Virus record (IMG/VR): IMGVR_UViG_3300033150_001973
Coordinates: 1-52,314 of that record
DNA from: a virus
Taxonomy: Duplodnaviria; Caudoviricetes
DNA length: 52,314 nucleotides
Strand: one strand, 5' to 3'
Below, piece by piece: positions 19,819 through 39,826 of this stretch. Numbering within the stretch: the stretch's first letter is position 1; each line of letters begins with the position of its first letter. The position numbers and the translations under genes were made by a program. The notes beneath the pieces were generated by a model. The model worked only from the letters and a program-made list of their open reading frames with translations. It was not told where the DNA came from and made no database searches.

Positions 19819-20640
19819 ATGAGTTTAAGAAGTGAAAGATACAGACAATGGGTTATAAATGTTGGTAATGAACTTAAAAAAGAAAAAGGAAAAACATTTA
19901 AAGTAATGGATTTTTTAAAGAAATACGGAGCAAGTGCAAAGTGGTTAAAGTGGGTAGAAGAAGATTTTGGAATAAAATTTGAAAGAACAAGTAATAAAAA
20001 AATAGATAAACCACAAGTAAAAGAAGTAGAACAGGTGGATGAACAAGTTAAACCAGTAGAACAAGTAGAACCAACTGAAAAACAAATTGAACAAAAAGAA
20101 GTATTAGAAGTTGTAATAAACAAGTTGAAACAAGTTGAAACTATGTATAATTCACTTAAAGAAGAAGTAAATAGGGTTAAAGATATGAAAGATGAAGTAG
20201 AAAAGACAGTTGAAAACAAGTTAATGAATGAACTTAATAATATAAAAACTACTATAATTGAGAACATTAAACAAGCAGAACCAGTTGAAAATACACAACC
20301 TCAAAATCCAATAGGTCAAATAGAAGAAGAACAAACACAACCAATTGGACAAAGTCCTAATTTACAACCTGATAATACACCACAACAAGTGCAACAAAAT
20401 CAATTAGCACAAAATAATTGGTTTAATATGATACCAGTTGTAATAAAAGAACTAAAAGGAATAATAATTGATATTATGCAAATAAAACAAGCAACTCAAC
20501 CAGCACAACCTCAATCTGTTAATTCTTATGAAAAAGTATGGGAAGATTTAGAAAGAACAACAAAGTTTCTGAAAAATGGTGTAGATATGTATAGAAAATT
20601 GGGGATTGATTTCAGTAAAGTAAAGGAAAAAGAAGAATAA
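19819..20640 (+). CDS. Coiled-coil, Q/P-rich protein carrying two PIGQ motifs
   Basis: ORF with GGGGG RBS. Confidence 0.7.
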   Translation: MSLRSERYRQWVINVGNELKKEKGKTFKVMDFLKKYGASAKWLKWVEEDFGIKFERTSNKKIDKPQVKEVEQVDEQVKPVEQVEPTEKQIEQKEVLEVVINKLKQVETMYNSLKEEVNRVKDMKDEVEKTVENKLMNELNNIKTTIIENIKQAEPVENTQPQNPIGQIEEEQTQPIGQSPNLQPDNTPQQVQQNQLAQNNWFNMIPVVIKELKGIIIDIMQIKQATQPAQPQSVNSYEKVWEDLERTTKFLKNGVDMYRKLGIDFSKVKEKEE

Positions 20641-20647
20641 TTTACAC

Positions 20648-20677
20648 TTGACACCTACCAACTCTTTCAAGTAAAAT
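20648..20677 (+). promoter_or_regulatory. Putative late-class promoter
   Basis: TTGACACC-18 bp spacer-TAAAAT. Confidence 0.6.
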
Positions 20678-20683
20678 TATTGT

Positions 20684-21046
20684 ATGGAGAAATTCCAATT
20701 AAAACGGATATTAAAACAATTATTAGCAATTGAAGACCATTTAGAAGCAGGTTTAGAAGACCCAATTGATAGTCCATTATGTATTGATTGTTTACAAGAA
20801 AAACATATACCTCTTTTAGAAATATTATCATCAGAATGTATATCAGGAGTGTGTTCTACTGGTAAAGCAAGAGAGTTAATGAATGAAATATTTTCTTTTA
20901 CTCAAACTCTTAAAAGTGATATTAAAAATCCAACAGAAAAAACTCTAAAAAATCTATTAAGTCAAACAAGAAACTTAAGAAAACAAGTTTATAGTTTAAT
21001 ACAGGAAGGGAATAGTAATGACGAAACAGTTTACATTGAGCCATAA
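20684..21046 (+). CDS. Helical CxxC protein
   Basis: KQLLAIEDHL...CIDC.xKH...CxxxxC. Confidence 0.65.
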   Translation: MEKFQLKRILKQLLAIEDHLEAGLEDPIDSPLCIDCLQEKHIPLLEILSSECISGVCSTGKARELMNEIFSFTQTLKSDIKNPTEKTLKNLLSQTRNLRKQVYSLIQEGNSNDETVYIEP

Positions 21047-21530
21047 ATTACTACTTACAACTGGGGCTTTACTTGTTATATTCGGATTTACAAAACTATT
21101 ACAAGCAGAACCAATTACTACTACTCCACCTGAAAATTTACCTCAGTCAGTTAAAAGATGGTGGAACTTAATAGTTAAATATGCTAAACAATATGGAGTT
21201 GACCCAAAAGCAATAGCAACTATAATAGAAGTTGAAAGTAATGGTAATCCATCTATTACTGGTTCTTATGGTGAAATAGGACTTATGCAAGTATTACCTC
21301 AAACTGCAAATTCACTTGGATATAATTATACTTTACTTTATAATCCTGAATGGAATATAAAAATTGGAACTGAATATTTTGCTATGCAATATTATAAGTA
21401 TAAAGATTTTTATAAAGCGTTTTATTCCTATAATGCAGGCAGGTATCCTAGAACTGATAGTCCACAGGCACACAGTAACGCAACAAACTATGCAAACAGA
21501 TGTATAACAATATATTCAACACTCGTATAA
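21018..21530 (+). CDS. Membrane-anchored lytic transglycosylase (SLT)
   Basis: N-terminal TM; IEVES, GLMQV, NIKIG, SYNAG. Confidence 0.92.
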   Translation: MTKQFTLSHKLLLTTGALLVIFGFTKLLQAEPITTTPPENLPQSVKRWWNLIVKYAKQYGVDPKAIATIIEVESNGNPSITGSYGEIGLMQVLPQTANSLGYNYTLLYNPEWNIKIGTEYFAMQYYKYKDFYKAFYSYNAGRYPRTDSPQAHSNATNYANRCITIYSTLV

Positions 21531-21596
21531 GTAAAAGTAAAATATTGGTTTTGTTCCTTTCCCTATTACCCTTTTTTTCCTTCCTGTTTTTATAAA

Positions 21597-21649
21597 AGAG
21601 GGATAGATGAGGTTGATTACCTTTTTCTATCCCTCTCCTTCATTTTTTT
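21597..21649 (+). terminator. Long hairpin / probable terminator
   Basis: AGAGGGATAGA...TCTATCCCTCT stem with inner AGGT/ACCT, then T-run. Confidence 0.65.
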
Positions 21650-21660
21650 AAAATTATCTC

Positions 21661-21690
21661 TTGACACCCCCTATGAGCAAAGAATAAAAT
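21661..21690 (+). promoter_or_regulatory. Putative late promoter of the capsid operon
   Basis: TTGACACCCC-18 bp spacer-TAAAAT. Confidence 0.65.
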
Positions 21691-21726
21691 GTATATAAAC
21701 TTATGAAAGGAGGTGAAAATATAAAA

Positions 21727-22200
21727 ATGATAGAGAATGCAATTAACACGCTAAACAGTTTTGAAGTAGTTGGACTTCCAATTGGTAAGGCTGTAGGGTT
21801 CAGTTTAGCAGTGGCAACAACTGGAGCAATCAATGAATTACTTGATAAAGTTCTGCCTGCAAATATCCCAAGAATGCCTATACTTACTTCTGGTTTAATT
21901 GCTTACCTTTGCACACTTCCTTTTGTTGAAAGATTTCTAGGTAAAAGCGGTTCAGTTATGCTCTCACTTGGAGCATTGTTTACAGGAATTGAACAACAGT
22001 TTGATTTAAGTGGAAAAATTAAATCTGCTGTAAGTGGACTTACAGCAAGGATTACTCCACCTGCAGTTACTACTCCTGAAACTTCAACTGTAGGATATAT
22101 ACCAACAGCATCTGGAATAGGAACAGCAGGTGAAATTGGAATAGGTCAGTCAGAAGGTATTTCTGATGTTAAGTCAAGATTAAGAATGAATATGAAATAA
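21727..22200 (+). CDS. Multi-pass membrane virion protein
   Basis: Three hydrophobic segments; AGGAGGTG RBS; directly upstream of the MCP. Confidence 0.7.
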   Translation: MIENAINTLNSFEVVGLPIGKAVGFSLAVATTGAINELLDKVLPANIPRMPILTSGLIAYLCTLPFVERFLGKSGSVMLSLGALFTGIEQQFDLSGKIKSAVSGLTARITPPAVTTPETSTVGYIPTASGIGTAGEIGIGQSEGISDVKSRLRMNMK

Positions 22201-22228
22201 AAAATAGAAAAGGAGGTGAAAAAAAACT

Positions 22229-23227
22229 ATGATAATTCATACTTATACAATGACAGACACAATAAACTTCTCATCAGGAACAACAGTAAGTAAAGATATT
22301 GCAAGACAAGGATACATAACTCACATTGACACTTTACTTAAAGTTGTTTATGATACTGCTTCATCTGTTACAGCAAACGAAGACCCCTTTGCTAGATTGA
22401 TAGATGGTATGGGTATTTCAACAGCAGGAAGATATTACTACAATGTTTCAGATGGAAGACAGGCACTCTTTCTTGGTAGATGTCAATATCAGGATAATAT
22501 CAGAGTTGATAGCATAAGCACATCTGCAAGTCAGAGTGGTATTGTAGATTATATGGCAATACCCATACATCTTGGAGTTCAGTTTTATAATTCATCAGAT
22601 GTGACTGTTGTAATACCTGCTTGGGAACTTTCATCTTTGAAATTTGAAGTTGACTGGGGAACTAATTCTAGTTTAGGAACTGGATATACAGTTAGTGATT
22701 CAACTAAAATGTTCCTTACAATAAAAGAGATACTTCTTCAGGAAGGAGAAACTATAGAGGCAATTATGCCAGCAGGTAAACTCTTACCAAGAATGACCTC
22801 ATCTGAAAAAACTGTAGATAGTGCTTTCAGTAATTTGTCTCTTGAGCAGGATTTACCTGTTGGTGATTTGCTTTCCTGGATACTGCTTGTTGTTTATGGA
22901 AACACTTCTGCTACAAGATGTAATAATCTTGTAACAGAGTTGGCTATTAAGTTCCCAAGGGAAGCAACAACAGTATTTAAGAGTGATTTCTTACCAGAAG
23001 TTACAGCAACAAGAAGAAGATGGGCATTAAACAACGATTATAAAGGGGTTGTATTTCTTCCACTTTCAGAAGTAAGTGGAGATGAACTTGGATATGATTT
23101 GTCAGGGTATCAGGTAGGAGACGCTAAAATATGTTATTCAACTTCTCTATCTGATACAACTGAAGACAGTGCTCAAGCCAATGGTGGAACAATTTACCAG
23201 TTGTTCTACAACATTGGGCTTGGTTAA
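22229..23227 (+). CDS. Double jelly-roll major capsid protein, STIV B345-like
   Basis: Colinear similarity by eye to STIV MCP as I recall it (TINFSSGTTVSKDIARQGYI ~ TYAWTAGTNIPIKIPRNNFI; IPAWELSSL ~ FPATMVQNI; LLPRM ~ VLPKV; LPVGD ~ LQPGQ); 332 aa, beta-rich, perfect RBS, downstream hairpin. Confidence 0.82.
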   Translation: MIIHTYTMTDTINFSSGTTVSKDIARQGYITHIDTLLKVVYDTASSVTANEDPFARLIDGMGISTAGRYYYNVSDGRQALFLGRCQYQDNIRVDSISTSASQSGIVDYMAIPIHLGVQFYNSSDVTVVIPAWELSSLKFEVDWGTNSSLGTGYTVSDSTKMFLTIKEILLQEGETIEAIMPAGKLLPRMTSSEKTVDSAFSNLSLEQDLPVGDLLSWILLVVYGNTSATRCNNLVTELAIKFPREATTVFKSDFLPEVTATRRRWALNNDYKGVVFLPLSEVSGDELGYDLSGYQVGDAKICYSTSLSDTTEDSAQANGGTIYQLFYNIGLG

Positions 23228-23242
23228 TAAACTACAAAAAAG

Positions 23243-23286
23243 TGGAAGGGTATGAAGGTCTTGTCCCATCCTTCCTAGCCCTTCCA
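23243..23286 (+). terminator. Hairpin after the MCP gene (attenuator or mRNA stabiliser)
   Basis: TGGAAGGG..GAAGG...CCTTC..CCCTTCCA, no long U-run. Confidence 0.55.
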
Positions 23287-23311
23287 TCCTCTTACTAAAT
23301 AGATTGGGAGG

Positions 23312-23647
23312 GTGGAAATGAAAGAAAAAGAGCAAATGGGTATAGCGATAATAGGACTTCTATTAGGAGCAGTAGTAATTTATTTTCTTACAAGACCTGG
23401 ACAATCCTGGGGTGGAACTATTACACCTGGCACTACACCAGGAGGTCAACTCCCAGAAGGAGCATTAGGAGTAGTTGAAATTAAAGGAGTTGGAAAATTC
23501 TATCCAAGAAGTAGAGAAGAATTATATGAATTGCTAAAACTTAAAGCAATATATGAAGGAGTTTCTCAACTTCCAATATTCAGGTCTAATACACCAATTG
23601 GGCAACCAGCAAGTATTAAGGAAAGATTGAGACAAAATATGAAATAG
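23312..23647 (+). CDS. Membrane-anchored virion protein
   Basis: N-terminal TM; C-terminus PIGQPASIKERLRQNMK. Confidence 0.7.
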   Translation: MEMKEKEQMGIAIIGLLLGAVVIYFLTRPGQSWGGTITPGTTPGGQLPEGALGVVEIKGVGKFYPRSREELYELLKLKAIYEGVSQLPIFRSNTPIGQPASIKERLRQNMK

Positions 23648-23663
23648 GTAGGGTGAATGTATT

Positions 23664-24758
23664 ATGAAAGAAAAAAAGGGCAGTTTACTTTTATGGATAC
23701 TAGCAGGATTGGCTGGATATATATACTTAAAAAAAAGAGGATTTGAGTTTCCAACAATCTTTGGGATAACAGAAGAACCTATAAAATTACCTCATATAGA
23801 ACCACCTGAAACTGTCTCACCACAACCGCCAGAAACTACAACTAAGCCATCAGAAACTACTACTACGACAACTACTACTACGACTGAACAACCAGAAACT
23901 CAAACTCCAATACCTACACCAGAACAAACACCTACTAAAACTTTCACTATAACTATATACTGGAAAAACGCAGAAAAATTTGAAGAATTATGTGAACAGA
24001 ATAATATCAAACACGAAGTAGCTGGTTATCCTGATAGGTCTCACATAAAATATAAAATTGAAGGTGTTGAAAAGATAATTAAGTATAAAATACTTCCAGA
24101 AGTTAAAAAATTGGAAAAACAGAGACAACCTAAAGTAGTTATTGGTTCTGGAGGAGAAATTCTACCTATAATATCTGAATCAAAAGAAGAAAATATAAGT
24201 ATAGTAAATCAGAAATTTAAAGATTTTGCAGAAGATTTAGGAAATAGTAAAGTAAAAGTATTGTTAGTTATAGATACTTCAGTATACCAAAAGTTTTTAT
24301 CAGATTTCCAAAAAACAAAAGAGACAGATAAGATACCATTAGATTATACTCCTGAAAAATCACAGGTATATTATAAAATAGAAATTGAAACAAATTCTTC
24401 TCTAGCAAATTACTTTAAAGAACTAAATTGGGAAGTTGATAGAATAAAACTTAAACAGTTGAAAATACCTGTATCAACGGAAACTGATAAGAAAAAGGAA
24501 GTAATAATCATTCCGACATATAACTGGGGTGAGGCAACAATTATATTTGCTAAATATGGAGTAAAGTGGAAAATCTTATCTGTTTTTGTATATAGACCAA
24601 TATTCTTAATAGGTGACAGGGATTATATGTTCACTTTTATAGATAATTTCATAAAAGAAAATAAAGATGAAATAATTGTCAGAAAAAGACCTTATATAGT
24701 TGGTAATAAACTTTACAATGCTATTTTAATAAGTAAAGGAGGGGCAAATGGGAAATAA
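23664..24758 (+). CDS. Membrane-anchored protein with P/T-rich linker
   Basis: N-terminal TM, poly-Thr/Pro stalk. Confidence 0.7.
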   Translation: MKEKKGSLLLWILAGLAGYIYLKKRGFEFPTIFGITEEPIKLPHIEPPETVSPQPPETTTKPSETTTTTTTTTTEQPETQTPIPTPEQTPTKTFTITIYWKNAEKFEELCEQNNIKHEVAGYPDRSHIKYKIEGVEKIIKYKILPEVKKLEKQRQPKVVIGSGGEILPIISESKEENISIVNQKFKDFAEDLGNSKVKVLLVIDTSVYQKFLSDFQKTKETDKIPLDYTPEKSQVYYKIEIETNSSLANYFKELNWEVDRIKLKQLKIPVSTETDKKKEVIIIPTYNWGEATIIFAKYGVKWKILSVFVYRPIFLIGDRDYMFTFIDNFIKENKDEIIVRKRPYIVGNKLYNAILISKGGANGK

Positions 24759-27030
24759 GACTGGAGAGGAAAAAAAGGTAATATTATTTGGGGCTTTAGG
24801 GATAGGACTTTTATTATTTAAGAATAAATTATTTGGGATAACTGTAACTGATGTAGAAAATAGAATTAAAGAAGTTAATGACAAAATAGATAAATTGATA
24901 GAAGAAGCAAAAAGAACTCTTAACGAAGAACAAGCAAAGTTCCAGAATAAAGTTGCACAATCAGAAGAAACTATTGCTAAAAAAATACAAGAATACGAAA
25001 AGGCACTTGAATTACAGAGACAACAAATAAGCGATTTAGTAAAGAAACAAGAGGAATTAGCAAGGCAAAGAGCAGAACAAAGAAGTAAAGAAGTAGAAGC
25101 GAATTATCTTGAAGTTATGGCACAACTTAAAGAGGCAAAACTTAAGGAAGGAGAATTACTTGCTAAAATAAATAAAGAAAAACTTGAAGAAGCAGAAAAC
25201 AAAGTTTTACAAGAAGCACTTGCTAATAAAATAGCAGGTATTAAAGAAGCAATAGCCAGAGAAGAAAAAAACCTTGCAGAGATAGAGAAACAAAAAAATC
25301 TTGACGCTTCAGCCATTCTACAAAAACAGGCAGAAGCAAAGAGGAGATTATCAGAATTATTACAACAGCAGTCAAAACTCAAAGGAGAAGTAGAACTTTT
25401 TGAAGTAGCAGTTAAACTTAGTGAAGATTATGCAAAGATGGCTAATGAGGCAAGAACAAAGTTGGCAGAACAGGCAAGTGAAGCAAGAAAAGCATTGGCT
25501 AAACAACTTGAAGAAGATATAGCAAAACAGGCAGAATTAGCAAGTAAAGCAAGATTGCAATTAGCAGAACAACAGAGACAATTAGCAGAAGATTTATATA
25601 AAAAATCTCTACAATATGCTTCAGATTTAGCAACTGAAGCAAGTAAAGCAAGAGAAGAACAAGCAAAAATACTAAGAGAATTTGCTATGGAATTAGCAGA
25701 GAAAGAACACGAATATTCTACAAAATTGGCTGAACAAGCAGAACAAGCAAGATTAAAACAGGCAGAGTTGAACAGACAAGCGAGAGAAAATTTAGCAAAA
25801 GCAATGCAGGATTATACAAAAGAATTATATAATAAACATCAAGAAATAATTGAAGCATTACAGAATAAGATGAAAATATATGATGAGCAAATAGTTAATT
25901 ATAGAGCAGATGTAGAAAGAATAACAGAGGAATATAGAAAAATCAGAGAATTAGAACTTGCAGAAATAAAAAGAATAAGAACGACAGTTCTATTAAGAGG
26001 TGATTTAAGTGGTGATGGTAAAATAGATGTAACAGATTTACAAATACTACAGAAAATAAATAAAGGTGAACCATTTGAAAGAAAAGGACTTACATATAAA
26101 CCACCTTATCCATCGTGGATTATAAATTTAGCAGATATGGATTTAGATGGAATTGTATCTGATAGTGATATAAATAGGTTAAAAGAAATTATATCTGGAA
26201 CAAGAAAACAAATAACCGAAACCATACAATTTACTCCATTACAAACGGGATATTTGAATTATCTATCACTTGCACAGAGACATAAATTAGATGTTTTGAA
26301 TGCTTATATTGATGGTATGTATAGAGTAGTTATTGTATTTGGTTTTGATGACGATATATTTAAGTATAAAGAAGAAGGTGGAGAATTTATAGCAGAAATA
26401 AAATATCCAGAAGGACTATATTATAAAATTGACCGACAAGGACTTTGGGGAGTTACTTATGACCATATATGTCCTTTTTGCACAGATAAATATTATGCAC
26501 AACAATATAGAGAGGAAGAATATATGCCACCTGCAAATGTAGCACCTGAATTGTATAATAATATCAAACTTTTAAATGAAATGGGATACAAAATACTTAT
26601 AGGAAAAACTGTAGGTAGACTTCCTCCATATGATTATCACGGCAGATTTTTCACTATTACTTATCTATCTCCTCTTTCCAAAGAAGCCATTATAGATGGT
26701 TTTTACTTAACAAAATATGGTCGCTCTTATAAAGAAAATGGAACGTATGTAAATTTTAATTACTACTCACTTGGTTATCATAAACTTAAAGATATTGAAC
26801 AAAAATACAAAGTTAAAGTAACCATAAGAAGAAGTGAAAGTAAAACTAGGCTATATCGTGTAAAAAGTTTTAACTCACAGTATGTAAGATTATATGGTGC
26901 AAGTGGTAAACTAACAGAGGTTTATAAATATATTCCAGAAAAGGAACTTTATATATCTGGAATAGAAGCAAATATAGATGGTTTTATAACAGAAGGAAGT
27001 TTGCCTTGCTTAACACAGGTAGTTGCATAA
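24748..27030 (+). CDS. Membrane-anchored long coiled-coil protein with dockerin domain
   Basis: TM, ~380-aa coiled coil, GDLSGDGKIDVTD...ADMDLDGIVSDSD. Confidence 0.75.
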   Translation: MGNKTGEEKKVILFGALGIGLLLFKNKLFGITVTDVENRIKEVNDKIDKLIEEAKRTLNEEQAKFQNKVAQSEETIAKKIQEYEKALELQRQQISDLVKKQEELARQRAEQRSKEVEANYLEVMAQLKEAKLKEGELLAKINKEKLEEAENKVLQEALANKIAGIKEAIAREEKNLAEIEKQKNLDASAILQKQAEAKRRLSELLQQQSKLKGEVELFEVAVKLSEDYAKMANEARTKLAEQASEARKALAKQLEEDIAKQAELASKARLQLAEQQRQLAEDLYKKSLQYASDLATEASKAREEQAKILREFAMELAEKEHEYSTKLAEQAEQARLKQAELNRQARENLAKAMQDYTKELYNKHQEIIEALQNKMKIYDEQIVNYRADVERITEEYRKIRELELAEIKRIRTTVLLRGDLSGDGKIDVTDLQILQKINKGEPFERKGLTYKPPYPSWIINLADMDLDGIVSDSDINRLKEIISGTRKQITETIQFTPLQTGYLNYLSLAQRHKLDVLNAYIDGMYRVVIVFGFDDDIFKYKEEGGEFIAEIKYPEGLYYKIDRQGLWGVTYDHICPFCTDKYYAQQYREEEYMPPANVAPELYNNIKLLNEMGYKILIGKTVGRLPPYDYHGRFFTITYLSPLSKEAIIDGFYLTKYGRSYKENGTYVNFNYYSLGYHKLKDIEQKYKVKVTIRRSESKTRLYRVKSFNSQYVRLYGASGKLTEVYKYIPEKELYISGIEANIDGFITEGSLPCLTQVVA

Positions 27031-27343: not shown

Positions 27344-27832
27344 ATGCCAGGAATGAAGCCTAGAATAGGAGCAAACATAGGAACAAGAAACATAGGACAA
27401 TCAAAAAGACCTTCTCCACAAACTTCTAAACCATTAGGACAATCAATAAAACATTCTCCAAGAGTTTCAAGACCATTAGGACAATCTTCAAAAGTTGTAA
27501 AAGACGTTCAGCAGAGATTATATGAACTTGGATATAATGATGTATTAGTTTCAAGTTCAAGAAAAAAGGACGGGACTTGGGATGGAATTTTAGGACAGGG
27601 GACTATGGCAACAATTAAGAAATTTCAACAGGATAGAGGATTACAGGTTACAGGTATGCCAGATACACCTACTTTACAGGCACTTGGTATAATATCTACT
27701 CCACCTCCACCAAAACCACCTCCACCAAATAAAGAAGCAATTGTTGACTGGGTAAAGAAAAATGCTATCTGGATAGGAATTATCTTAATGCTGGTAACAG
27801 TTATAACCCTTATAAAAAAGGAGAAAAAATGA
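27344..27832 (+). CDS. Peptidoglycan-binding domain protein with C-terminal TM
   Basis: VKDVQQRLYELGY...DGILGQGT..IKKFQQDRGLQVTG. Confidence 0.85.
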   Translation: MPGMKPRIGANIGTRNIGQSKRPSPQTSKPLGQSIKHSPRVSRPLGQSSKVVKDVQQRLYELGYNDVLVSSSRKKDGTWDGILGQGTMATIKKFQQDRGLQVTGMPDTPTLQALGIISTPPPPKPPPPNKEAIVDWVKKNAIWIGIILMLVTVITLIKKEKK

Positions 27833-28359
27833 AAGCACCAAGAAATAAAAGATTAATGTCAAAAGCCATTGGACAAAGTTATTTACAACCACCAGATTTA
27901 GATTTATCTCCACCTGGTTTTAATTTCGGTAATGGAACTTATTTACAACTGCCAGATTTAAATTTTTCTCCTCCTGGTTTTGATATTCCAACTTGGAATA
28001 TTCCTGGATTTGGAACAAGTTATGTAAAATTTGACCCATCAATACTTCAGGGAATACAGAATATAGGAACTGAAGTGGCACAGCAGGGTGGAACTTGGGG
28101 AGATTGGTTTAAAAATCTTTTACAGACAGGACTTACAACTGCAACACAACTTTATTTGCTTAAACAACAAATGAGAGCAATGGGAAAAAGTGAGACAGAT
28201 AAAGTAACTCCACAAGATACTTCTGCTCTTACAACTCAATTATATGCTATGCAAGCACAACAGCAGAAAGAACAGCAAAAAATGTTTCTTATACTCGGTA
28301 TAGGAGGACTGTTTCTAGTGTTAATTATAATGATGTTTACTATGATGAGGGAAAAATGA
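27829..28359 (+). CDS. Virion membrane protein (C-terminal TM) with 20-aa tandem duplication
   Basis: YLQPPDLDLSPPGF / YLQLPDLNFSPPGF. Confidence 0.7.
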   Translation: MKAPRNKRLMSKAIGQSYLQPPDLDLSPPGFNFGNGTYLQLPDLNFSPPGFDIPTWNIPGFGTSYVKFDPSILQGIQNIGTEVAQQGGTWGDWFKNLLQTGLTTATQLYLLKQQMRAMGKSETDKVTPQDTSALTTQLYAMQAQQQKEQQKMFLILGIGGLFLVLIIMMFTMMREK

Positions 28360-28997
28360 GGAGAACTACACCAATTGGCAGACAAAAATATAAAGTGAAG
28401 GCAATAGGGCAATCAAATGTTTCATATTCAAAGGAGTTAATTGCACAAATACAGAAACGGTTATATAATCTTGGAATTGAAAGAGAAACACTTGTAAAGT
28501 CATCTTTAAAATCAGATGGGACTTGGGATGGAATACTTGGAGAGGGAACTAAAACTGCTATAAGAAAATTTCAAGAAATGAATAATTTGCCTGCTACAGG
28601 TATTCCAGATAATAAAACATTAGAATTACTTGGTTTTCCTTCTAGTAATGAAACTAATAATGAAACAGTAATTTTACCTTATTTGCCAATAGCAAGAGAA
28701 AGAGCAGAACAAGAATTTGGAAAATATGCTGGTGAACTTGAAGAAGGAGAAACCTTGTATGAGTTCCTTACAAAACTATATAAAAAGCATAAAATAGGAT
28801 TTTATGATATTGATAGATTTATAAGAGTTGCACAAAATATAGGAATAAAACCAGACGAAGAATTATCAAAGGAAAAATTACTTGCTTTATTAGCACGATA
28901 TAAAGAACTGCGTGTATTAAATTGTTTACTTTTTGCTACTATTGGTATTGGGGCTTTAGCACTAATTATTACCTTTTTACCAGAAAGAAAGGGATAA
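28356..28997 (+). CDS. Peptidoglycan-binding domain protein with C-terminal TM (paralog of 27344)
   Basis: IQKRLYNLG...DGTWDGILGEGTKTAIRKFQ..NNLPATG. Confidence 0.85.
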   Translation: MRRTTPIGRQKYKVKAIGQSNVSYSKELIAQIQKRLYNLGIERETLVKSSLKSDGTWDGILGEGTKTAIRKFQEMNNLPATGIPDNKTLELLGFPSSNETNNETVILPYLPIARERAEQEFGKYAGELEEGETLYEFLTKLYKKHKIGFYDIDRFIRVAQNIGIKPDEELSKEKLLALLARYKELRVLNCLLFATIGIGALALIITFLPERKG

Positions 28998-29000: not shown

Positions 29001-29486
29001 ATGAGAGTAGGAGTAAAGGAGAAACTTGATTTATTTGAAAAAGTAGCAATTATAAAATCAGTTATTGAAAAGTGGTATAATACAAAAGTTATAGATAATG
29101 TAATTAAATTGATAAAAAAAAAGTATGGGGGACTTCCACCTTACGAAAAAGATAAAGCACTTCTACTGGCAAAATGGGTAAAAGAAAATATAAAATACAT
29201 TCCTGAACCACCACATTTTAATGACAGAGTTAAAACACCTGTTGTAATAATGAAATGTAGATTTGGGGACTGCTCGGAACACGCTATTTTGTTAGGGTGT
29301 CTTCTTAAAAGAGAAAATATACCTTTTGTTTATGCTCTTGTTTCTACATTACCAAAAGAACCTAATGTTATAAATCATATATATTTAGAAGCAAGAGTTG
29401 ATGGAGAAAAAATACCTCTTGATACAACAAGCACAACTCCTCTGGGGAAAGAGCCAGTAGAATTTGCAAAAGTATATTTTAAGTGA
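29001..29486 (+). CDS. Transglutaminase-like cysteine protease
   Basis: WVKENIKY, GDCSEHA (Cys), NHIY (His), LDTT (Asp) triad. Confidence 0.85.
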   Translation: MRVGVKEKLDLFEKVAIIKSVIEKWYNTKVIDNVIKLIKKKYGGLPPYEKDKALLLAKWVKENIKYIPEPPHFNDRVKTPVVIMKCRFGDCSEHAILLGCLLKRENIPFVYALVSTLPKEPNVINHIYLEARVDGEKIPLDTTSTTPLGKEPVEFAKVYFK

Positions 29487-29496
29487 GGTGATACAA

Positions 29497-30249
29497 ATGC
29501 CGAAATTGTTGGATAGAACAAAAATTGTCTATGACAGTATAATAAGAAAATTCCTTGATAGTGGAAAAACTGTTGAAGAATTTTTATCTTCTGTTAAAGG
29601 GTCATCAAGTTTTATAAAGTTAAATTATTATGTATTGAAGAGATATTGTTCAGAAAATAATATAGAATTTGAACTTGATTTGAAAGACCTTAATATACCT
29701 GAACCTGAAATTTCATTGTATAAAGAGCAAAAAATTAAAAAAGAAGATATTATTAAAGTTATAAAAACACTTAAAAATTCCAACTATAACATAAATAAAT
29801 TTTTCTTTGCTATTTCAACTACTTATGGAACAAGATGTGTTGAACTATCAAGAATAACCGAAAAAGATATAGATTTAACAAGAAACCTGCTTTTGATTAA
29901 AACAGCAAAAAGTGGTGAACCAAGAATTTATAGAATACCAGAGGAAATATTGCCTTATTTTCAGTATTTTAAACCTATATCTAATCAGAATGTTTTATGG
30001 ACTATTTACCATCAATCATTTAAAATGGCTGGTATAAATTCAAAAGGAACTGGATACCATACTATAAGAAAAATACTTTTTACTGAACTTATAAATTCTG
30101 GTTGTCCTTATGAATTTGTTGAGTATTTTTTCAGATGGAAATTAGGTGGTAGAGTAAGTTTTCAGCATTACTTTACTCCTGAAATAGACAGAGTATATGA
30201 AAAAATCAGACCTCATCACCCATTTATTGAGGAGTGGAAAAATGAATAA
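29497..30249 (+). CDS. Tyrosine recombinase
   Basis: GTRCVEL (R), KTAK (K), HTIRK (HxxR), RW, HY (Tyr). Confidence 0.85.
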   Translation: MPKLLDRTKIVYDSIIRKFLDSGKTVEEFLSSVKGSSSFIKLNYYVLKRYCSENNIEFELDLKDLNIPEPEISLYKEQKIKKEDIIKVIKTLKNSNYNINKFFFAISTTYGTRCVELSRITEKDIDLTRNLLLIKTAKSGEPRIYRIPEEILPYFQYFKPISNQNVLWTIYHQSFKMAGINSKGTGYHTIRKILFTELINSGCPYEFVEYFFRWKLGGRVSFQHYFTPEIDRVYEKIRPHHPFIEEWKNE

Positions 30250-35643: not shown

Positions 35644-35740
35644 AAAGAAGTTAAACGATAATTTTGTAGAATATGGAAGTATTTTTGGTATGTTATTTAC
35701 CATTTATCTTTTAATTTTGTTTTTAAGGTCTTTAAAATGA
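35636..35740 (+). CDS. Small membrane peptide (34 aa)
   Basis: GGAGG RBS, one TM. Confidence 0.45.
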   Translation: MNKKKLNDNFVEYGSIFGMLFTIYLLILFLRSLK

Positions 35741-36024: not shown

Positions 36025-36036
36025 AAGGGGGATAAA

Positions 36037-36558: not shown

Positions 36559-36583
36559 GGTAAAATATAATAGGAGGTAAGTA

Positions 36584-37003
36584 ATGATAACAGGAGAAGT
36601 AATTGAAGCAGGGACACAAGCGATGAAAACAGCACAAAAAACAGCAGAAAAAGGGACAGAAGCATTGGGATATAAGGAAGTTAGATGGATTTTAGTTGGT
36701 GGAGCAATTATTATACTTTTTCCCTTCATAAGAAGATATTTAGTAAATATAATTGCTCTACCACCTGTTGATGAAGGAGGAAAACCTACAAGTTTACCAG
36801 AAGACGCTCAAATATGGAGAAAATTTTATAAACAAAGCACACTTAATACTGCATTACCATATTGGGCTAAATTGGGATACAAACTTATATATATAAGAAC
36901 AACAAGAAAAGGAAGTTGGTATAAACCAGACCCAATAGCAGTTGCTTGGTGGTCTCCAAGTAAAAGGATGTGTGTGTGGATTGAGAATATAACTTATGTG
37001 TAA
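36584..37003 (+). CDS. Single-pass membrane protein
   Basis: WILVGGAIIILFPFI. Confidence 0.65.
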   Translation: MITGEVIEAGTQAMKTAQKTAEKGTEALGYKEVRWILVGGAIIILFPFIRRYLVNIIALPPVDEGGKPTSLPEDAQIWRKFYKQSTLNTALPYWAKLGYKLIYIRTTRKGSWYKPDPIAVAWWSPSKRMCVWIENITYV

Positions 37004-37013
37004 AAGGAGGTGT

Positions 37014-37298
37014 ATGATGATTAAAGGAATTCTTTTTTTAAGTATAGCATTGGAGAGGATAGTTGAGTTTTTAAGGCAGAATACAAAAATTAAGAAAGTT
37101 CCTGCTCTTTTAATTGTATGGGTATTTTCATTTTTAAGTTTATTCTTCTGGGGTAAAGGTGGGGTTTTAGGACTTATTTCCCCAATAAATAAGATATGGG
37201 ATAGTATCTTTACAAGTTTCATAATTACAGCAGGAAGTAAAATAACTCACGATTTATTAGGATTAGTAGAAGGTAAATATAAAGAAGTGAAAAAATGA
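37014..37298 (+). CDS. Holin-like membrane protein
   Basis: Three TM segments; LSIALERIVEF...AGSKITHDLL. Confidence 0.6.
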   Translation: MMIKGILFLSIALERIVEFLRQNTKIKKVPALLIVWVFSFLSLFFWGKGGVLGLISPINKIWDSIFTSFIITAGSKITHDLLGLVEGKYKEVKK

Positions 37299-37444
37299 AG
37301 AAGTTGAGTTTAAAAGATTGGCTTGAAGTTGGTATGTATTTAGCATTGTTTGGAGCAGTGGTATTCTTTGGAACATCTATTTTTACTGAATTACAGAATA
37401 AGTTAAAAGAAAAGGTAAAAAAAGAATTAGAAGAAATAACATAA
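37295..37444 (+). CDS. Small membrane protein (49 aa)
   Basis: ATGA overlap, TM plus charged tail. Confidence 0.55.
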   Translation: MKKLSLKDWLEVGMYLALFGAVVFFGTSIFTELQNKLKEKVKKELEEIT

Positions 37445-37458
37445 AAAGGAGGTAGAAG

Positions 37459-37974
37459 ATGAGAAAATTAGAAAAGATTTTTGGTAAGGTAAGGGTTTTA
37501 CACTTGTTTATAATTTTTGTGTCTATTTTGGCGTCTCAACTGGTGTTCTCTGCTGAAAAAAAGGTAAAGGAGAAGAACTGGTGGGATGAGATAATTTCAG
37601 ATGTAAATTTTCTTAAAGAATATGATTGGAAAGGTTCTTTAGGAGGGATTGTATTACGAATGGGAAAAAAGGATTACAAGGTTGAGAGTTGCACTCAATT
37701 CCTTCAATCTCCAAAGGAATATCTCAATCTAAATGCAATCTATCCAGAGATAGTGGGAATGGCAGGAGAGTTTAATCTGAAAAAGGCACTCGGAGATTTC
37801 TGGTTTAAAGTATGTGTAAAGATAGATGAAGAAGCAAGGAAAAAACTTGAGGAAAAATTTAAGTTTTTCAAGTTCATACGGATAGATGTAGGTGGGTATT
37901 TTGGTTGGGATACTTCTGATAGTGGAGATTTCAAAGGAGGGATGGCGTTTAAGGTAGTTGAGTGGAAATTCTAA
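37459..37974 (+). CDS. Exported protein, possible outer-membrane beta protein
   Basis: Signal peptide (VFSA|), amphipathic beta C-terminus ending WKF. Confidence 0.5.
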   Translation: MRKLEKIFGKVRVLHLFIIFVSILASQLVFSAEKKVKEKNWWDEIISDVNFLKEYDWKGSLGGIVLRMGKKDYKVESCTQFLQSPKEYLNLNAIYPEIVGMAGEFNLKKALGDFWFKVCVKIDEEARKKLEEKFKFFKFIRIDVGGYFGWDTSDSGDFKGGMAFKVVEWKF

Positions 37975-37989
37975 AAAAAGGAGGACAGA

Positions 37990-38262
37990 ATGGAAAATAA
38001 AAATTTATTATTGATAGGGGGAGCAATAGCATTAATTCTATGGTTAGTAAGTCAAAGAAGGAAAAGTGAGACAACAACTGTAACAAGTTCAAGCATAGGA
38101 CAATCAGATTTACTGACAGGTATGGGTATGGGAGTAAGTGGTATTCCCAGACGAGGAAGACCAAAAACAGAAGCAGAAAGATTAGCAACTCATAAACTTC
38201 TTTATGGAAATACTAATTTACCACCACGAGGGACAGGATTATTTAAGAGGGGTATGTTATGA
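37990..38262 (+). CDS. Membrane-anchored protein with AT-hook-like tail
   Basis: N-terminal TM; SIGQS; PRRGRPK. Confidence 0.7.
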   Translation: MENKNLLLIGGAIALILWLVSQRRKSETTTVTSSSIGQSDLLTGMGMGVSGIPRRGRPKTEAERLATHKLLYGNTNLPPRGTGLFKRGML

Positions 38263-38768
38263 TTGGAGATATTTTTGTATTTTATCCTGACAAAAGTAAT
38301 TGGTTTAGTTGTTTCATAGGTGGATATATAGGTGGAGCGAGTCATTGTGGAGTAAAAATAGTAGAAATAAAAACTATACCGATAATATTTGAAGCAGTAG
38401 GAGAGCATAACAGAGTAGAGTTAAATCCACTTTTAATAAAAGAAGATAGAATATATGATATTTACAGATTAAAGAAAGAATACAGAGAAAATTTTGATTT
38501 AGATAAAGCAATAGAGTGGGCATTAAAACAGGTTGGTAAAGGATATGATTATTTGCAATTGATTGGTATTAAACTCAAAAGGGCAAGATTTGATAGTCCA
38601 TATAAATATATATGTTCTGAACTTGTATATAATTTTTTTAAAGAAGGCGGTATTGAACTTGCCGAATGGAAAAAGAAGTCGTTTATAACACCAAAAGATA
38701 TAACTGAAGACCCGAAACTTGAACTTATAAAAGGAGGGAAAGTTGAGGACAACAAAAATACAACTTGA
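38259..38768 (+). CDS. Permuted papain-like NlpC/P60 protein (YiiX/YebB family)
   Basis: GDI, SHCG, GKGYD, YICSELV, ITPKDI. Confidence 0.85.
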   Translation: MIGDIFVFYPDKSNWFSCFIGGYIGGASHCGVKIVEIKTIPIIFEAVGEHNRVELNPLLIKEDRIYDIYRLKKEYRENFDLDKAIEWALKQVGKGYDYLQLIGIKLKRARFDSPYKYICSELVYNFFKEGGIELAEWKKKSFITPKDITEDPKLELIKGGKVEDNKNTT

Positions 38769-38970
38769 AATGGAAATACCAGAAGCGTTATGGGAAAATG
38801 TTAAACCCCTCATATCAAAAAAAGGTATAACAATAAGGAAGGTAAAGGGAGTTTACAGGATAAAGATAACACAAGGACTTGGTGAACTTATAAAAATGAG
38901 ATTGTTAACACTACTATTAGAAATGTCAAAGAGATTACGGGAGATAAAAGATGGCAAAAGAAATAGATAA
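38743..38970 (+). CDS. Hypothetical protein
   Basis: AGGAGGG RBS before TTG. Confidence 0.5.
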   Translation: MRTTKIQLEMEIPEALWENVKPLISKKGITIRKVKGVYRIKITQGLGELIKMRLLTLLLEMSKRLREIKDGKRNR

Positions 38971-39223
38971 GGAAAAATTTGCTACTTTAATGGAGAAACA
39001 GAGACATAGGTTAAATGAACTTATAGATTACTTAAAGTCAAATCTTGAAGAGTTAGAAGAAGAGGAACATAAATTACAATCAAAATACAAAGAATTAAAG
39101 GAAAAGAGAGGTGATGTAAAAGAGTTTATAAATTTAAAAGATTTAATGTTTTTTGCGATAGCAGGATTTATTGGGTATATAGTGTGGAAAAACTATAAAG
39201 AACAAAAGGGAGGTGTCTTATGA
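38951..39223 (+). CDS. Coiled-coil protein with C-terminal TM
   Basis: LMFFAIAGFIGYIVW. Confidence 0.65.
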   Translation: MAKEIDKEKFATLMEKQRHRLNELIDYLKSNLEELEEEEHKLQSKYKELKEKRGDVKEFINLKDLMFFAIAGFIGYIVWKNYKEQKGGVL

Positions 39224-39555
39224 AAAGGTTTTATCCTTTAAAACAACCACCAAAGAAGTATGCAGATGTTAAGACAAGAACAAATATAGTAGATGGATGG
39301 GCTTTAATAAGGAGGTTTTCTTCAATAAGGGACTTAAATGATGAGGTATATAATTTAAGGAAGCAAGGGTATCAAGTAGAAACATTAACTTCAAAGATAC
39401 AAGGAAAACTTCCTCATCGTGTAGTTAAGTATATTTTATGGAAACATTTACTTACTGGTATTTATCTAGCAGAAACAAGAATAGAAGAAGGAACAGGCAG
39501 ACCATTACAAAAATTTCAAAAGAAAGCGTATGTTAAGGGAGTTATTTCTCAGTAA
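39220..39555 (+). CDS. Basic hypothetical protein
   Basis: GGGAGGTG RBS. Confidence 0.6.
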   Translation: MKRFYPLKQPPKKYADVKTRTNIVDGWALIRRFSSIRDLNDEVYNLRKQGYQVETLTSKIQGKLPHRVVKYILWKHLLTGIYLAETRIEEGTGRPLQKFQKKAYVKGVISQ

Positions 39556-39571
39556 GAAGGGGGTGTAGAAA

Positions 39572-39826
39572 ATGGAATATGTAGCAAAAAATATATGTCC
39601 AGAGTGTAAAGGATTAGGTCTTGTAGTAGTAAATCTTAAATATCCAGTTGCTCACAGTCCTGCCGTTCAAGTTAAGAAAGTATTTATTCCTTGTCCAAGA
39701 TGTAAAGGAACTGGTATTTTAACAGCAACAAGTATAGGACAAACATTGCAAAAACCACCAGTTATTAAAAGAAAAGAGTATAAGCCAGTAAAGATAAATA
39801 TCTACGGTAGAAAACAGGGGGTATAA
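39572..39826 (+). CDS. DnaJ-type zinc-finger protein
   Basis: CPECKGLG...CPRCKGTG; SIGQT. Confidence 0.7.
   Translation: MEYVAKNICPECKGLGLVVVNLKYPVAHSPAVQVKKVFIPCPRCKGTGILTATSIGQTLQKPPVIKRKEYKPVKINIYGRKQGV

What the first reader, a model, noticed from the sequence alone, without database searches (positions are those of the whole stretch)
19819..39826. Shared (I/L)GQ(S) motif in eight late proteins: candidate recognition code for the transglutaminase-fold enzyme
Seen: PIGQI and PIGQS (20311, 20344), GIGQS (22141), PIGQP (23597), NIGQS/PLGQS/PLGQS (27392, 27434, 27476), AIGQS (27868), AIGQS (28404; also PIGRQ 28374), SIGQS (38095) and SIGQT (39734). Codons vary, so selection acts on the protein. 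Eight exact [IL]GQS copies occur in this region versus roughly under one expected genome-wide (rough estimate). Motifs sit in flexible termini, and in 27344, 27829 and 28356 they end short Arg/Lys-rich N-terminal leaders directly upstream of the Cys-His-Asp enzyme gene at 29001. Known: eukaryotic DJR viruses mature by Cys-protease cleavage at Gly motifs (adenain, vaccinia I7L AG|X, ASFV GG|X), and transglutaminases act on Gln. Inference: a bacterial-virus maturation system that either cleaves hydrophobic-G|Q or cross-links the Gln. A capsid-docking motif is a third option.
Basis: partly seen in the sequence, partly recalled or inferred. Interest (0 to 1): 0.92.

Follow-up and report, generated by a model that had tools for sequence, protein, structure and literature searches.

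The report
Conserved IGQS tag in phage membrane proteins
A short peptide tag (Ile/Leu-Gly-Gln, usually followed by Ser) recurs in the loose ends of eight structural-module proteins of a new membrane-containing bacterial virus and is kept in distant relatives, which makes it a likely processing or docking signal, possibly read by the cysteine enzyme encoded next to three of these genes.

Summary
All 11 sites are at the stated coordinates. [IL]GQS occurs 9 times in the proteome against 0.25 expected (0 of 5000 shuffles reach 9). IGQS is the most over-represented tetrapeptide by protein count: 6 proteins, 0.144 expected, Bonferroni 1.8e-3. Codons vary. The carrier proteins are only 20-30% identical in two related metagenome loci, yet the motif stays at the aligned position in 4 of 5 families (L003) and 3 of 3 (L004).

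The window is a complete 52.3-kb genome with 114-bp terminal repeats. Gene 22229 encodes an STIV-like double-jelly-roll capsid protein. Gene 29001 is a transglutaminase-fold protein with an invariant Cys-His-Asp triad and lies beside the motif genes in all three loci.

The enzyme-motif link rests on gene order alone. The co-fold gave no verdict. The nearest named viral relative, Salisaeta phage SSIP-1 gp34, is annotated as a structural protein, and its proteome shows no such motif.

- Best reading: maturation cleavage at [IL]-G|Q by 29001 (0.35).
- Main rival: docking signal, with 29001 a cell-wall peptidase (0.30).
- Gln cross-linking or deamidation: 0.12.

The parts
19819..20640 (+). 273-aa soluble protein with a coiled-coil middle. 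It has two motif copies in a Q/P-rich linker (PIGQI at 20311, PIGQS at 20344).
   Evidence: The L003 orthologue has NIGQP aligned to the second copy, plus a second KIGQP.
21703..22200 (+). 165-aa hydrophobic protein just upstream of the capsid gene. GIGQS (22141) lies 17 residues from the C-terminus, followed by a basic tail.
   Evidence: E-I-G-x-G-Q is invariant in the L003 and L002 orthologues.
22229..23227 (+). Major capsid protein with a double jelly-roll fold. It carries no motif.
   Evidence: Model pLDDT 79.7. Foldseek top hits are STIV MCP 2bbd_A (E 1.7e-16, TM 0.77), then PRD1 P3 and PBCV-1 Vp54. Seven homologues at 52-95% identity.
23312..23647 (+). 111-aa protein with an N-terminal transmembrane helix. 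PIGQP (23597) lies 14 residues from the C-terminus, followed by a basic tail.
   Evidence: P-I-G-Q-P is invariant in L003 and L004. P0163 has SIGQP.
27344..27832 (+). 162-aa tail-anchored protein with a PG_binding_1 domain. Its N-terminal leader carries three tandem copies (NIGQS 27392, PLGQS 27434, PLGQS 27476).
   Evidence: The 42-nt repeat units are 22-27 of 42 nt identical.
27829..28359 (+). 176-aa tail-anchored membrane protein. AIGQS (27868) ends a 15-residue basic leader.
   Evidence: The L004 orthologue has PLGQI. The L003 orthologue has ALGFGE, so the Gln is lost.
28356..28997 (+). 213-aa tail-anchored protein with a PG_binding_1 domain. AIGQS (28404) ends an 18-residue basic leader, and PIGR (28374) lies upstream of it.
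   Evidence: K-x-I-G-Q is kept in L003 (SIGQS) and L004 (AIGQT). The upstream [IL]G[RK] site is also kept.
29001..29486 (+). 161-aa transglutaminase-fold protein with a Cys91-His126-Asp141 triad. It is the candidate enzyme for the motif. It has no transmembrane helix; no signal-peptide predictor was run.
   Evidence: Pfam Transglut_core 29.7 bits (cut-off 23) and DUF553. The triad is invariant in 4 orthologues. C91 and H126 are invariant and D141 is at least 90% conserved in 43 sequences. Model pLDDT 91.2. PDB neighbours are listed.
37990..38262 (+). 90-aa protein with a hydrophobic N-terminal stretch read by eye as a membrane anchor (not flagged by the hydropathy scan). SIGQS (38095) separates it from a 53-residue basic C-terminal part.
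   Evidence: No orthologue lies in the fetched loci.
38259..38768 (+). 169-aa permuted papain-like enzyme (Peptidase_C92 / YiiX-like). It is the rival candidate enzyme.
   Evidence: Pfam PF05708, E 2.8e-8. NCBIfam YiiX hit is weak.
39572..39826 (+). 84-aa protein with a DnaJ-type CxxCxG zinc finger. SIGQT (39734) precedes a 28-residue tail of net charge +7.
   Evidence: No orthologue lies in the fetched loci.

Best explanation
The motif, best written [P/A/S/G]-[I/L]-G-Q-[S/T/P], is a short linear signal on exposed terminal or linker segments of at least eight structural-module proteins. Most of these are small proteins with one hydrophobic anchor, and the virus is a new STIV-like double-jelly-roll bacterial virus.

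The most likely mechanism is maturation cleavage. The neighbouring Cys-His-Asp enzyme 29001, a papain-superfamily transglutaminase-fold protein, would bind the Ile/Leu in its S2 pocket and cut after Gly ([I/L]-G|Q). This would trim 13-29-residue N-terminal leaders and 13-17-residue C-terminal tails. It would cut the coiled-coil protein 19819 in its linker. It would free the basic C-terminal peptides of 37990 and 39572.

Shown: the motif, its enrichment, its conservation, the capsid fold, the enzyme fold and triad, and the synteny.

Inferred: that any bond is cut, which bond, and that 29001 does it.
For: - Enrichment survives a proteome-wide multiple-testing control. A control phage proteome gives no such word.
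- The motif is kept at aligned positions in 4 of 5 families in L003, 3 of 3 in L004, 1 of 1 in L002 and 1 of 1 in P0163. The carriers are 20-30% identical, against 51-55% for the enzyme and 62% for the recombinase-like neighbour.
- Sites lie in hydrophobic-poor flanks.
- In 5 of 8 window proteins the site lies 14-18 residues from a terminus. This is the geometry of propeptide removal.
- Genes 27344, 27829, 28356 and 29001 are contiguous with overlapping or abutting ends. The block of PG-binding protein, 27829-like protein and enzyme is kept in L003 and L004.
- 29001 has an intact conserved triad. Its PDB neighbours include real or putative cysteine proteases: 3isr, 3kd4, LapG 4fgo/4u65 and CPR-C4 7ob6.
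- Pro follows Gln in 5 of the roughly 25 site instances read (window, L003, L004, P0163). Gln is replaced by R/K/F at secondary sites. This fits a cut after Gly better than chemistry on Gln. The rule that papain-like enzymes prefer a hydrophobic P2 residue is recalled, not tested.
- SSIP-1 gp34, the closest named viral relative, is annotated as a virion structural protein. A virion location for this enzyme type is therefore plausible, as for adenain (recalled).
Against: - No data show cleavage. The virus is uncultured and I saw no proteomics.
- The enzyme-motif link is gene order only.
- SSIP-1 carries a homologous virion enzyme but no recurrent tetrapeptide.
- ESM Atlas look-alikes are small stand-alone transglutaminase-like proteins, 80-97% viral, with tailed phages (Uroviricota) as the commonest assigned phylum. 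The enzyme type may therefore have a general phage role unrelated to this motif.
- PDB neighbours also include PeiW/PeiP phage cell-wall isopeptidases, PNGase and true transglutaminases.
- Three tandem sites in one leader are not needed for simple leader removal.
- Plain [IL]GQ is only weakly enriched in the relatives: L003 has 6 against 3.1 (259 of 3000 shuffles reach it) and L004 has 4 against 1.1 (70 of 3000).
- The relatives form one narrow clade, so co-occurrence of enzyme and motif has no informative negative case.
Confidence: 0.35

Rival explanations
1. The motif is a non-covalent docking or virion-incorporation signal. It would bind the inner face of the capsid protein trimer or an assembly factor and would recruit membrane and core proteins into the particle. 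In this reading 29001 is unrelated to the motif. It would be a virion-borne cell-wall endopeptidase or isopeptidase that works with the SLT transglycosylase 21018 and the PG_binding_1 proteins during entry or lysis.
For: - The motif occurs on proteins of different architecture and at either terminus. Copy numbers are 1, 2 or 3, and three copies 14 residues apart could match a capsid trimer.
- The tails beyond the motif are themselves partly conserved: RLRxNMK in two window proteins and an N-M ending kept in L003. This suggests they are functional rather than discarded.
- 29001's fold neighbours include PeiW/PeiP, the cell-wall isopeptidases of methanogen phages.
- 29001 sits between PG-binding proteins.
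- The SSIP-1 homologue gp34 is a virion protein with a C-terminal membrane anchor, and that phage has no motif.
Against: - I obtained no binding prediction for capsid protein plus tail.
- The genome already encodes SLT, Amidase_3 and a C92 enzyme.
- 29001 has no wall-binding domain of its own.
- A motif with an invariant Gly and a hydrophobic residue before it is typical of protease sites (recalled).
Confidence: 0.3
2. 29001 acts on the Gln side chain. As a transglutaminase it would cross-link the tagged tails to Lys residues of capsid or membrane proteins, stabilising the virion. As a glutamine deamidase it would convert Gln to Glu.
For: - Gln is kept at the primary site in 10 of 11 orthologue comparisons.
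- The fold and triad are shared with true transglutaminases (4xz7, 9crn).
- Substrate Gln residues of transglutaminases usually lie in flexible segments (recalled), as these sites do.
- Several sites have Lys three residues before the Ile/Leu.
- Multiple tandem Gln tags in 27344 would make sense for cross-linking.
Against: - Secondary sites have R, K or F in place of Gln.
- Pro directly after Gln in 5 instances is unfavourable for the best-studied transglutaminases (recalled, not tested).
- Most prokaryotic Transglut_core proteins are thought to be hydrolases (recalled; passages of PMC10318531 seen list both activities).
- No acceptor site is identified.
Confidence: 0.12
3. The motif is a cleavage site, but the protease is not 29001. 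It would be the permuted papain-like enzyme 38259 or a host protease.
For: 38259 matches Peptidase_C92 (E 2.8e-8) and overlaps the end of the motif gene 37990. No other protease family was found among the 40 window proteins scanned against Pfam, nor among the 20 scanned against PHROGs.
Against: - C92/NlpC-P60-type enzymes are usually amidases or wall peptidases (family description).
- 38259 is 9 kb from the main cluster of motif genes.
- Its conservation in relatives could not be tested because the fetched loci end before it.
- 54 of the 94 ORFs (mostly under 150 aa) were not scanned against Pfam.
Confidence: 0.08
4. There is no common function. The recurrence would come from paralogy, tandem duplication and low-complexity composition.
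For: 27344 and 28356 are paralogues and 27344 has a tandem triplication. Linkers rich in P, S, T and Q raise local odds.
Against: - Counting distinct proteins, IGQS is still the top word (6 proteins; 5 if the paralogues count once).
- Within-protein shuffles keep local composition and never reach the count.
- The carriers 19819, 21703, 23312, 27829, 37990 and 39572 were given different or no family assignments by Pfam and NCBIfam.
- The motif is kept at orthologous positions.
Confidence: 0.03

Closest known systems
Adenovirus protease (adenain) and its (M/I/L)XGG|X / (M/I/L)XGX|G sites; ASFV pS273R (GG|X); vaccinia I7L (AG|X). Motifs recalled.
   Same: The virus has a double-jelly-roll capsid. 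One short Gly-containing consensus with an upstream hydrophobic residue recurs in several core, membrane-lytic or scaffold-like structural proteins. Short terminal peptides would be removed. The candidate is a cysteine enzyme.
   Different: Those enzymes are clan CE (Ulp1-like), and 29001 is transglutaminase-fold with no Pfam match to them. The motif here has Gln after Gly. The host is bacterial. Passages of PMC6260650 treat the maturation protease as acquired on the eukaryotic side, and the main text of PMC5894146 has no occurrence of protease or maturation. Cleavage is not shown here.
Phage T4 capsid-targeting leaders cut by the prohead protease gp21 at (L/I)XE|, and phiKZ gp175 sites (recalled)
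   Same: A short N-terminal leader ends in a protease consensus on proteins destined for the particle. One signal could serve both targeting and cleavage.
   Different: Those are tailed phages with an HK97-fold capsid and a serine protease of the herpesvirus-assemblin type. There is no membrane and the consensus differs.
Transglutaminase-fold cysteine proteases that remove N-terminal segments: LapG (PDB 4fgo, 4u65) and lasso-peptide B2 / McjB (the latter recalled and seen only in the reference list shown)
   Same: They share the fold class and the Cys-His-Asp triad. They cut at a short motif of small residues to release an N-terminal module or leader.
   Different: 29001 gave no Pfam hit other than Transglut_core and DUF553. 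LapG matches only at Foldseek E 2e-3 to 2e-2. Substrates and motif are unrelated.
[quoted passage not shown]
   Same: It is the only SSIP-1 protein matched by any of the 94 window ORFs (28% over 78 aa, E 1.9e-9). It has a transglutaminase-like core and is annotated as a structural protein of a large tailless phage that PMC6356626 describes as membrane-containing. The top BFVD structural hit of the 29001 model is an unnamed 304-aa viral protein of the same length (TM 0.80).
   Different: gp34 is 304 aa with a C-terminal membrane anchor. The SSIP-1 proteome has no over-represented tetrapeptide. SSIP-1 is said to encode two capsid protein types (PMC6356626, passage seen), not one double-jelly-roll protein. 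The function of gp34 is unknown to me, and the original paper was not held.
PeiW / PeiP pseudomurein endoisopeptidases of methanogen phages (PDB 8jx4, 8z4f)
   Same: They are phage-encoded transglutaminase-fold Cys-His-Asp enzymes that act on cell-wall peptide links. 29001 sits among wall-binding proteins.
   Different: The structural match is weak (E 0.04-0.06). The Pei enzymes carry their own wall-binding repeats (recalled). The window's other wall enzymes (SLT, Amidase_3) point to a murein-walled bacterial host.

Membership tests
Transglutaminase-like superfamily (Pfam Transglut_core PF01841, papain-like clan), for 29001 | Profile match above the curated cut-off | tested here: met
   29.7 bits against a cut-off of 23. 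Also DUF553, 27.7 against 20.5. A profile of 4 orthologues finds 2263 library proteins at E<=1e-3. The 10 sampled all match Transglut_core at E<=0.001, 9 of them above its cut-off.
Transglutaminase-like superfamily, for 29001 | Cys-His-Asp catalytic triad in the canonical order | tested here: met
   C91, H126 and D141 are invariant in 4 orthologues. C91 and H126 are invariant and D141 is at least 90% conserved in 43 sequences.
Transglutaminase-like superfamily, for 29001 | Papain-like alpha+beta core fold | tested here: met
   Model pLDDT 91.2. Foldseek hits: 3isr (E 2e-6), 3kd4, PNGase, LapG, TGase 4xz7, CPR-C4, PeiW/PeiP.
Transglutaminase-like superfamily, for 29001 | Type of reaction (peptidase, transglutaminase, deamidase or isopeptidase) | not testable with these tools
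   The same triad serves all four reactions. It needs biochemistry.
Virus maturation protease with a consensus cleavage motif (adenain / I7L / pS273R type) | One short consensus recurring in several structural proteins | tested here: met
   11 sites in 8 proteins of the structural module.
Virus maturation protease with a consensus cleavage motif (adenain / I7L / pS273R type) | Enzyme of the clan CE Ulp1/adenain fold | tested here: not met
   29001 is transglutaminase-fold. No clan CE family was found among the 40 window proteins scanned against Pfam.
Virus maturation protease with a consensus cleavage motif (adenain / I7L / pS273R type) | Demonstrated cleavage at the motif | not testable with these tools
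   There are no proteomic or biochemical data. The co-fold gave no verdict.
Double-jelly-roll, internal-membrane viruses (PRD1-STIV-adenovirus lineage) | Major capsid protein with a double jelly-roll fold | tested here: met
   STIV MCP 2bbd_A, E 1.7e-16, TM 0.77. PRD1 P3 and PBCV-1 Vp54 follow.
Double-jelly-roll, internal-membrane viruses (PRD1-STIV-adenovirus lineage) | FtsK/HerA-type packaging ATPase | tested here: inconclusive
   The only Walker A motif in the 94 ORFs is in 46527, which matches AAA_5 / MoxR-like families. Only 40 of 94 ORFs were scanned against Pfam.
Double-jelly-roll, internal-membrane viruses (PRD1-STIV-adenovirus lineage) | Internal lipid membrane | not testable with these tools
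   It is suggested only by the many small one-helix proteins around the capsid gene.
LapG / BTLCP and lasso-peptide B2 proteases | Match to the family-specific profile | tested here: not met
   The Pfam scan at E<=0.01 lists only Transglut_core and DUF553. NCBIfam gives 0 families at E<=0.1.

The most novel reading that the evidence does not exclude
A bacterial double-jelly-roll virus encodes a true transglutaminase that covalently stitches Gln-tagged membrane and core proteins ([I/L]GQ tags, up to three per protein) to lysines of the capsid or of each other. This would be an enzyme-made isopeptide network that stabilises a membrane-containing virion, a counterpart of HK97 chainmail reached by a different route.

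Less exotic, but also new: the first maturation protease system in a prokaryotic member of this virus lineage, built on a transglutaminase-fold enzyme and convergent with adenain.
Probability: 0.1. Interest if true: 0.9.

Novelty: new variant of a known kind. Interest (0 to 1): 0.62.

Why it matters
In the papers I could see, maturation by a virus-coded protease is described for the eukaryotic double-jelly-roll viruses and treated as a eukaryote-side acquisition (PMC6260650, passages). The 2018 census of prokaryotic double-jelly-roll viruses does not contain the words protease or maturation in its main text (PMC5894146).

A conserved, statistically solid peptide signal shared by eight structural-module proteins of a bacterial member, with a conserved cysteine enzyme next door, makes the question directly testable. 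The test needs a few cloned genes and intact-mass spectrometry.

- If it is cleavage, particle maturation by proteolysis arose independently in the prokaryotic branch, on a different protease fold.
- If it is cross-linking, it is a new way to stabilise a virion.
- If it is docking, it identifies the first sorting signal for proteins of a phage internal membrane.

The virus itself is unusually large for this lineage (52.3 kb, STIV-like capsid protein, bacterial wall enzymes). I found no relative of its capsid protein in GenBank phages or in IMG/VR. Its enzyme and recombinase-like protein also found nothing in IMG/VR.

Tried and rejected
1. Co-fold of 29001 (alignment A3) with residues 1-40 of the 28356 family (A5). 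The verdict was no answer, ipSAE 0.00 in two runs, and controls were not run. This is no evidence either way.

2. More relatives.
- Capsid protein by tblastn against GenBank phages: none.
- Capsid protein single and profile against IMG/VR: none.
- Capsid profile against GTDB genomes: none.
- Metagenomes: 3 loci.
- Enzyme profile and recombinase profile against IMG/VR: none.
- A search with the 23312-family profile gave only 4 proteins from lineages already seen.

3. Host from the TnpB-like gene 11394. The best matches are 58% to an archaeal groundwater MAG contig and 33% to a Bacillus-like genome. This was uninformative and was dropped.

4. Weak PHROG hit of 45599 to 'head maturation protease' (E 1.8e-3, in a coiled-coil stretch). 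I judged it chance.

5. DNA-level explanation (a repeated nucleotide element). Rejected, because codons differ, including AGT against TCA for Ser.

6. Rfam and tRNA scans of the window: nothing.

7. Literature.
- No paper holds both 'double jelly-roll' and 'transglutaminase'.
- Two papers hold 'transglutaminase-like' + bacteriophage + virion + maturation, and neither is on this subject.
- A search on thermophile double-jelly-roll viruses gave nothing relevant.
- Papers seen as passages only: PMC6260650, PMC5894146, PMC10318531 and PMC6356626.
- The SSIP-1 paper (PMC3344969) is not held. Its virion-protein data, and any supplements, could bear on whether gp34 or other SSIP-1 proteins are processed.

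8. Depletion of the motif elsewhere. Five [IL]GQ lie outside the set against about 5 expected overall. This is not informative.

Full report
**What the window is.** The window is a whole IMG/VR virus record of 52,314 bp with an exact 114-bp direct terminal repeat. It has about 30% G+C and essentially all long ORFs are on the + strand. The left 18 kb holds replication, methylase, glycosyltransferase and TnpB-like genes. From about 18.5 kb onward there is a module of many small proteins with one hydrophobic helix. This module surrounds gene 22229.

The model of 22229 (pLDDT 79.7) matches the STIV major capsid protein (2bbd_A, E 1.7e-16, TM 0.77). PRD1 P3 and PBCV-1 Vp54 come next. An SLT transglycosylase (21018), two PG_binding_1 proteins (27344, 28356) and an Amidase_3 (35083) point to a host with a murein wall.

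**The observation.** All 11 sites are at the stated coordinates.
- In 94 + strand ORFs (16,904 aa), [IL]GQS occurs 9 times against 0.25 expected. None of 5000 within-protein shuffles exceed 3.
- Because the motif was chosen after looking, I ranked every tetrapeptide by the number of proteins that hold it. IGQS comes first: 6 proteins, 0.144 expected, P 1.1e-8, Bonferroni 1.8e-3. The runner-up has Bonferroni 1.4.
- None of 300 shuffled proteomes produce so extreme a word. The same scan on the SSIP-1 proteome finds nothing.
- Codons vary with genome usage, including AGT against TCA for Ser.
- One LGQS lies in the TnpB-like gene, which has foreign-looking codons. One ILGQG lies inside the folded PG-binding domain. 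I exclude both from the set.
- Three copies are one old 42-nt triplication, and 27344 and 28356 are paralogues. This leaves about five independent families with exact IGQS, plus 23312 (PIGQP) and 39572 (SIGQT).

**Anatomy.** The fuller consensus, from window and relatives, is [P/A/S/G]-[I/L]-G-Q-[S/T/P, rarely I/V]. There is often K/R two residues before the I/L. Flanks are poor in hydrophobic residues at all 11 sites.
- In 27344, 27829 and 28356 the site ends a 15-18-residue N-terminal leader. Each protein has its only hydrophobic helix at the extreme C-terminus.
- In 21703 and 23312, which flank the capsid gene, the site lies 17 and 14 residues from the C-terminus, before a basic tail.
- In 37990 the site separates an N-terminal hydrophobic stretch, read by eye and not flagged by the hydropathy scan, from a basic C-terminal part. 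In 39572 it separates a zinc finger from a basic C-terminal peptide.
- In 19819 two copies sit in a Q/P-rich linker after a coiled coil.

**Conservation.** Seven capsid homologues exist in the protein collection, at 52-95% identity. Three metagenome loci could be fetched. The carrier proteins are 20-30% identical between the window and L003 or L004. By comparison the enzyme is 51-55% identical and the recombinase-like neighbour 62%.

The motif nevertheless aligns in these families:
- 19819 family: I-G-Q is invariant at the second copy.
- 21703 family: E-I-G-x-G-Q.
- 23312 family: P-I-G-Q-P in three lineages plus P0163.
- PG-binding family: K-x-I-G-Q.
- 27829 family in L004.

The one miss is the 27829 orthologue of L003, which reads LGFGE. 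The PG-binding family also keeps a second, upstream [IL]G[RK] site. The most constant part is therefore hydrophobic-Gly, with Gln strongly preferred next.

Orthologues of 37990 and 39572 lie outside the fetched loci. Plain [IL]GQ counts in the relatives are only mildly raised: 6 against 3.1 (259 of 3000 shuffles reach it) and 4 against 1.1 (70 of 3000). Longer patterns are significant but were defined after the fact. The basic charge of the leaders is not conserved: +3, +5 and +6 in the window, and -1 and -1 in the PG-binding orthologues.

**The enzyme.** 29001 matches Transglut_core and DUF553. Cys91, His126 and Asp141 are invariant in four orthologues, and C91 and H126 are invariant in 43 sequences. 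A profile search shows one close cluster and then a gap to 2263 distant superfamily members.

The model (pLDDT 91.2) is closest to two putative cysteine proteases (3isr, 3kd4). After them come PNGase, LapG, a TGase, TglA, the CPR-C4 protease and the phage pseudomurein isopeptidases PeiP/PeiW. The fold therefore does not say which reaction is catalysed.

The block of PG-binding protein, 27829-like protein and enzyme is kept in L003 and L004. ESM Atlas look-alikes are small stand-alone transglutaminase-like proteins that are 80-97% viral, most commonly assigned to tailed phages.

Two small distant homologues led by tblastn to Salisaeta icosahedral phage 1 gp34. gp34 is annotated as a structural protein and has a C-terminal hydrophobic anchor. 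It is the only SSIP-1 protein matched by any window ORF (28% over 78 aa, E 1.9e-9). The top BFVD structural hit is an unnamed 304-aa viral protein, the same length as gp34 (TM 0.80). SSIP-1 shows no recurrent tetrapeptide.

**Weighing the mechanisms.** The motif is a real, selected short linear signal (about 0.9). What reads it is open.

For cleavage by 29001:
- The sites are terminal and exposed.
- The consensus spans several subsites.
- The neighbouring cysteine enzyme is conserved, and its fold class contains proteases that remove N-terminal modules.
- Pro follows Gln in five instances and R/K/F replace Gln at secondary sites. This argues for a cut after Gly rather than after Gln or chemistry on Gln.

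Against cleavage by 29001:
- There is no direct evidence.
- The SSIP-1 precedent has an enzyme without a motif.
- This enzyme type is frequent in tailed phages.
- A plausible alternative job exists as a wall peptidase, beside the SLT and PG-binding proteins.

Docking to the capsid interior would explain the variable copy number, the partly conserved tails beyond the motif, and the lack of any need for 29001. Docking and cleavage can also coexist, as in T4 capsid-targeting leaders (recalled). Cross-linking or deamidation of Gln remains possible but fits the variable secondary sites less well. The co-fold of enzyme and leader gave no verdict and counts for nothing.

**Comparison with what is known.** The system would work like adenain, I7L, pS273R or T4 gp21 with their consensus sites. 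It is not a member of those protease families, because the fold test is not met. In the literature I could see, a maturation protease is described for eukaryotic members of the lineage and treated as a eukaryote-side acquisition. The prokaryotic census has no occurrence of the words, and no paper combines the two key terms.

My verdict is a new variant of a known kind, if cleavage is confirmed. The motif itself is solid and the mechanism is unproven.

Noticed in passing
window 1-52314: This is a complete 52.3-kb genome with a 114-bp exact terminal repeat and an STIV-like double-jelly-roll capsid protein. That is far larger than the 10-20-kb bacterial viruses of this lineage that I recall. Its capsid protein found no relative in GenBank phages, IMG/VR or GTDB genomes, and its enzyme and recombinase-like protein found none in IMG/VR.
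   Followed up: partly
window 46527-47684 and 49459-50421: The only Walker A protein among the 94 ORFs is an AAA_5 / MoxR / GvpN-like ATPase, and a VWA-domain protein lies two genes downstream. I detected no FtsK/HerA-type packaging ATPase. MoxR-VWA pairs are often linked with transglutaminase-like genes in bacteria (recalled).
   Followed up: no
window 11394-12530: A TnpB / IS605 OrfB-like gene sits inside the early region. GC-rich codons were seen at its LGQS site. The best fetched relative is 58% identical, on an archaeal groundwater MAG contig.
   Followed up: partly
window 24748-27030, 39827-41491, 42800-43585: There are two long proteins (760 and 554 aa) with a hydrophobic N-terminal segment followed by a long A/E/K/Q coiled coil. 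The C-terminal domain of 39827 is clearly similar to that of 42800, so they share a paralogous domain. 24748 and its upstream neighbour 23664 are absent between the 23312-like and 27043-like genes of L003 and L004.
   Followed up: no
window 22150-22200 and 23610-23647: The two small proteins that flank the capsid gene end in the same C-terminal sequence pattern (R-L-R-x-N-M-K). The 21703 orthologue in L003 keeps an L-N-M ending.
   Followed up: partly
window 17783-18510: A gap of about 0.7 kb lies between the early and late modules. It holds only short ORFs of odd composition. It has no Rfam family and no tRNA. It may be a regulatory or origin region.
   Followed up: no
window 29464-30249: A tyrosine-recombinase-like protein (Phage_integrase, weak XerA-like match) is the best conserved gene of the block, at 62% identity to L003 and L004. 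It always follows the enzyme, separated by one small gene in the relatives.
   Followed up: no
L007 (NC_017983.1) 21296-22210: SSIP-1 gp34, annotated only as a structural protein, has a transglutaminase-like Cys-His core and a C-terminal hydrophobic anchor.
   Followed up: partly
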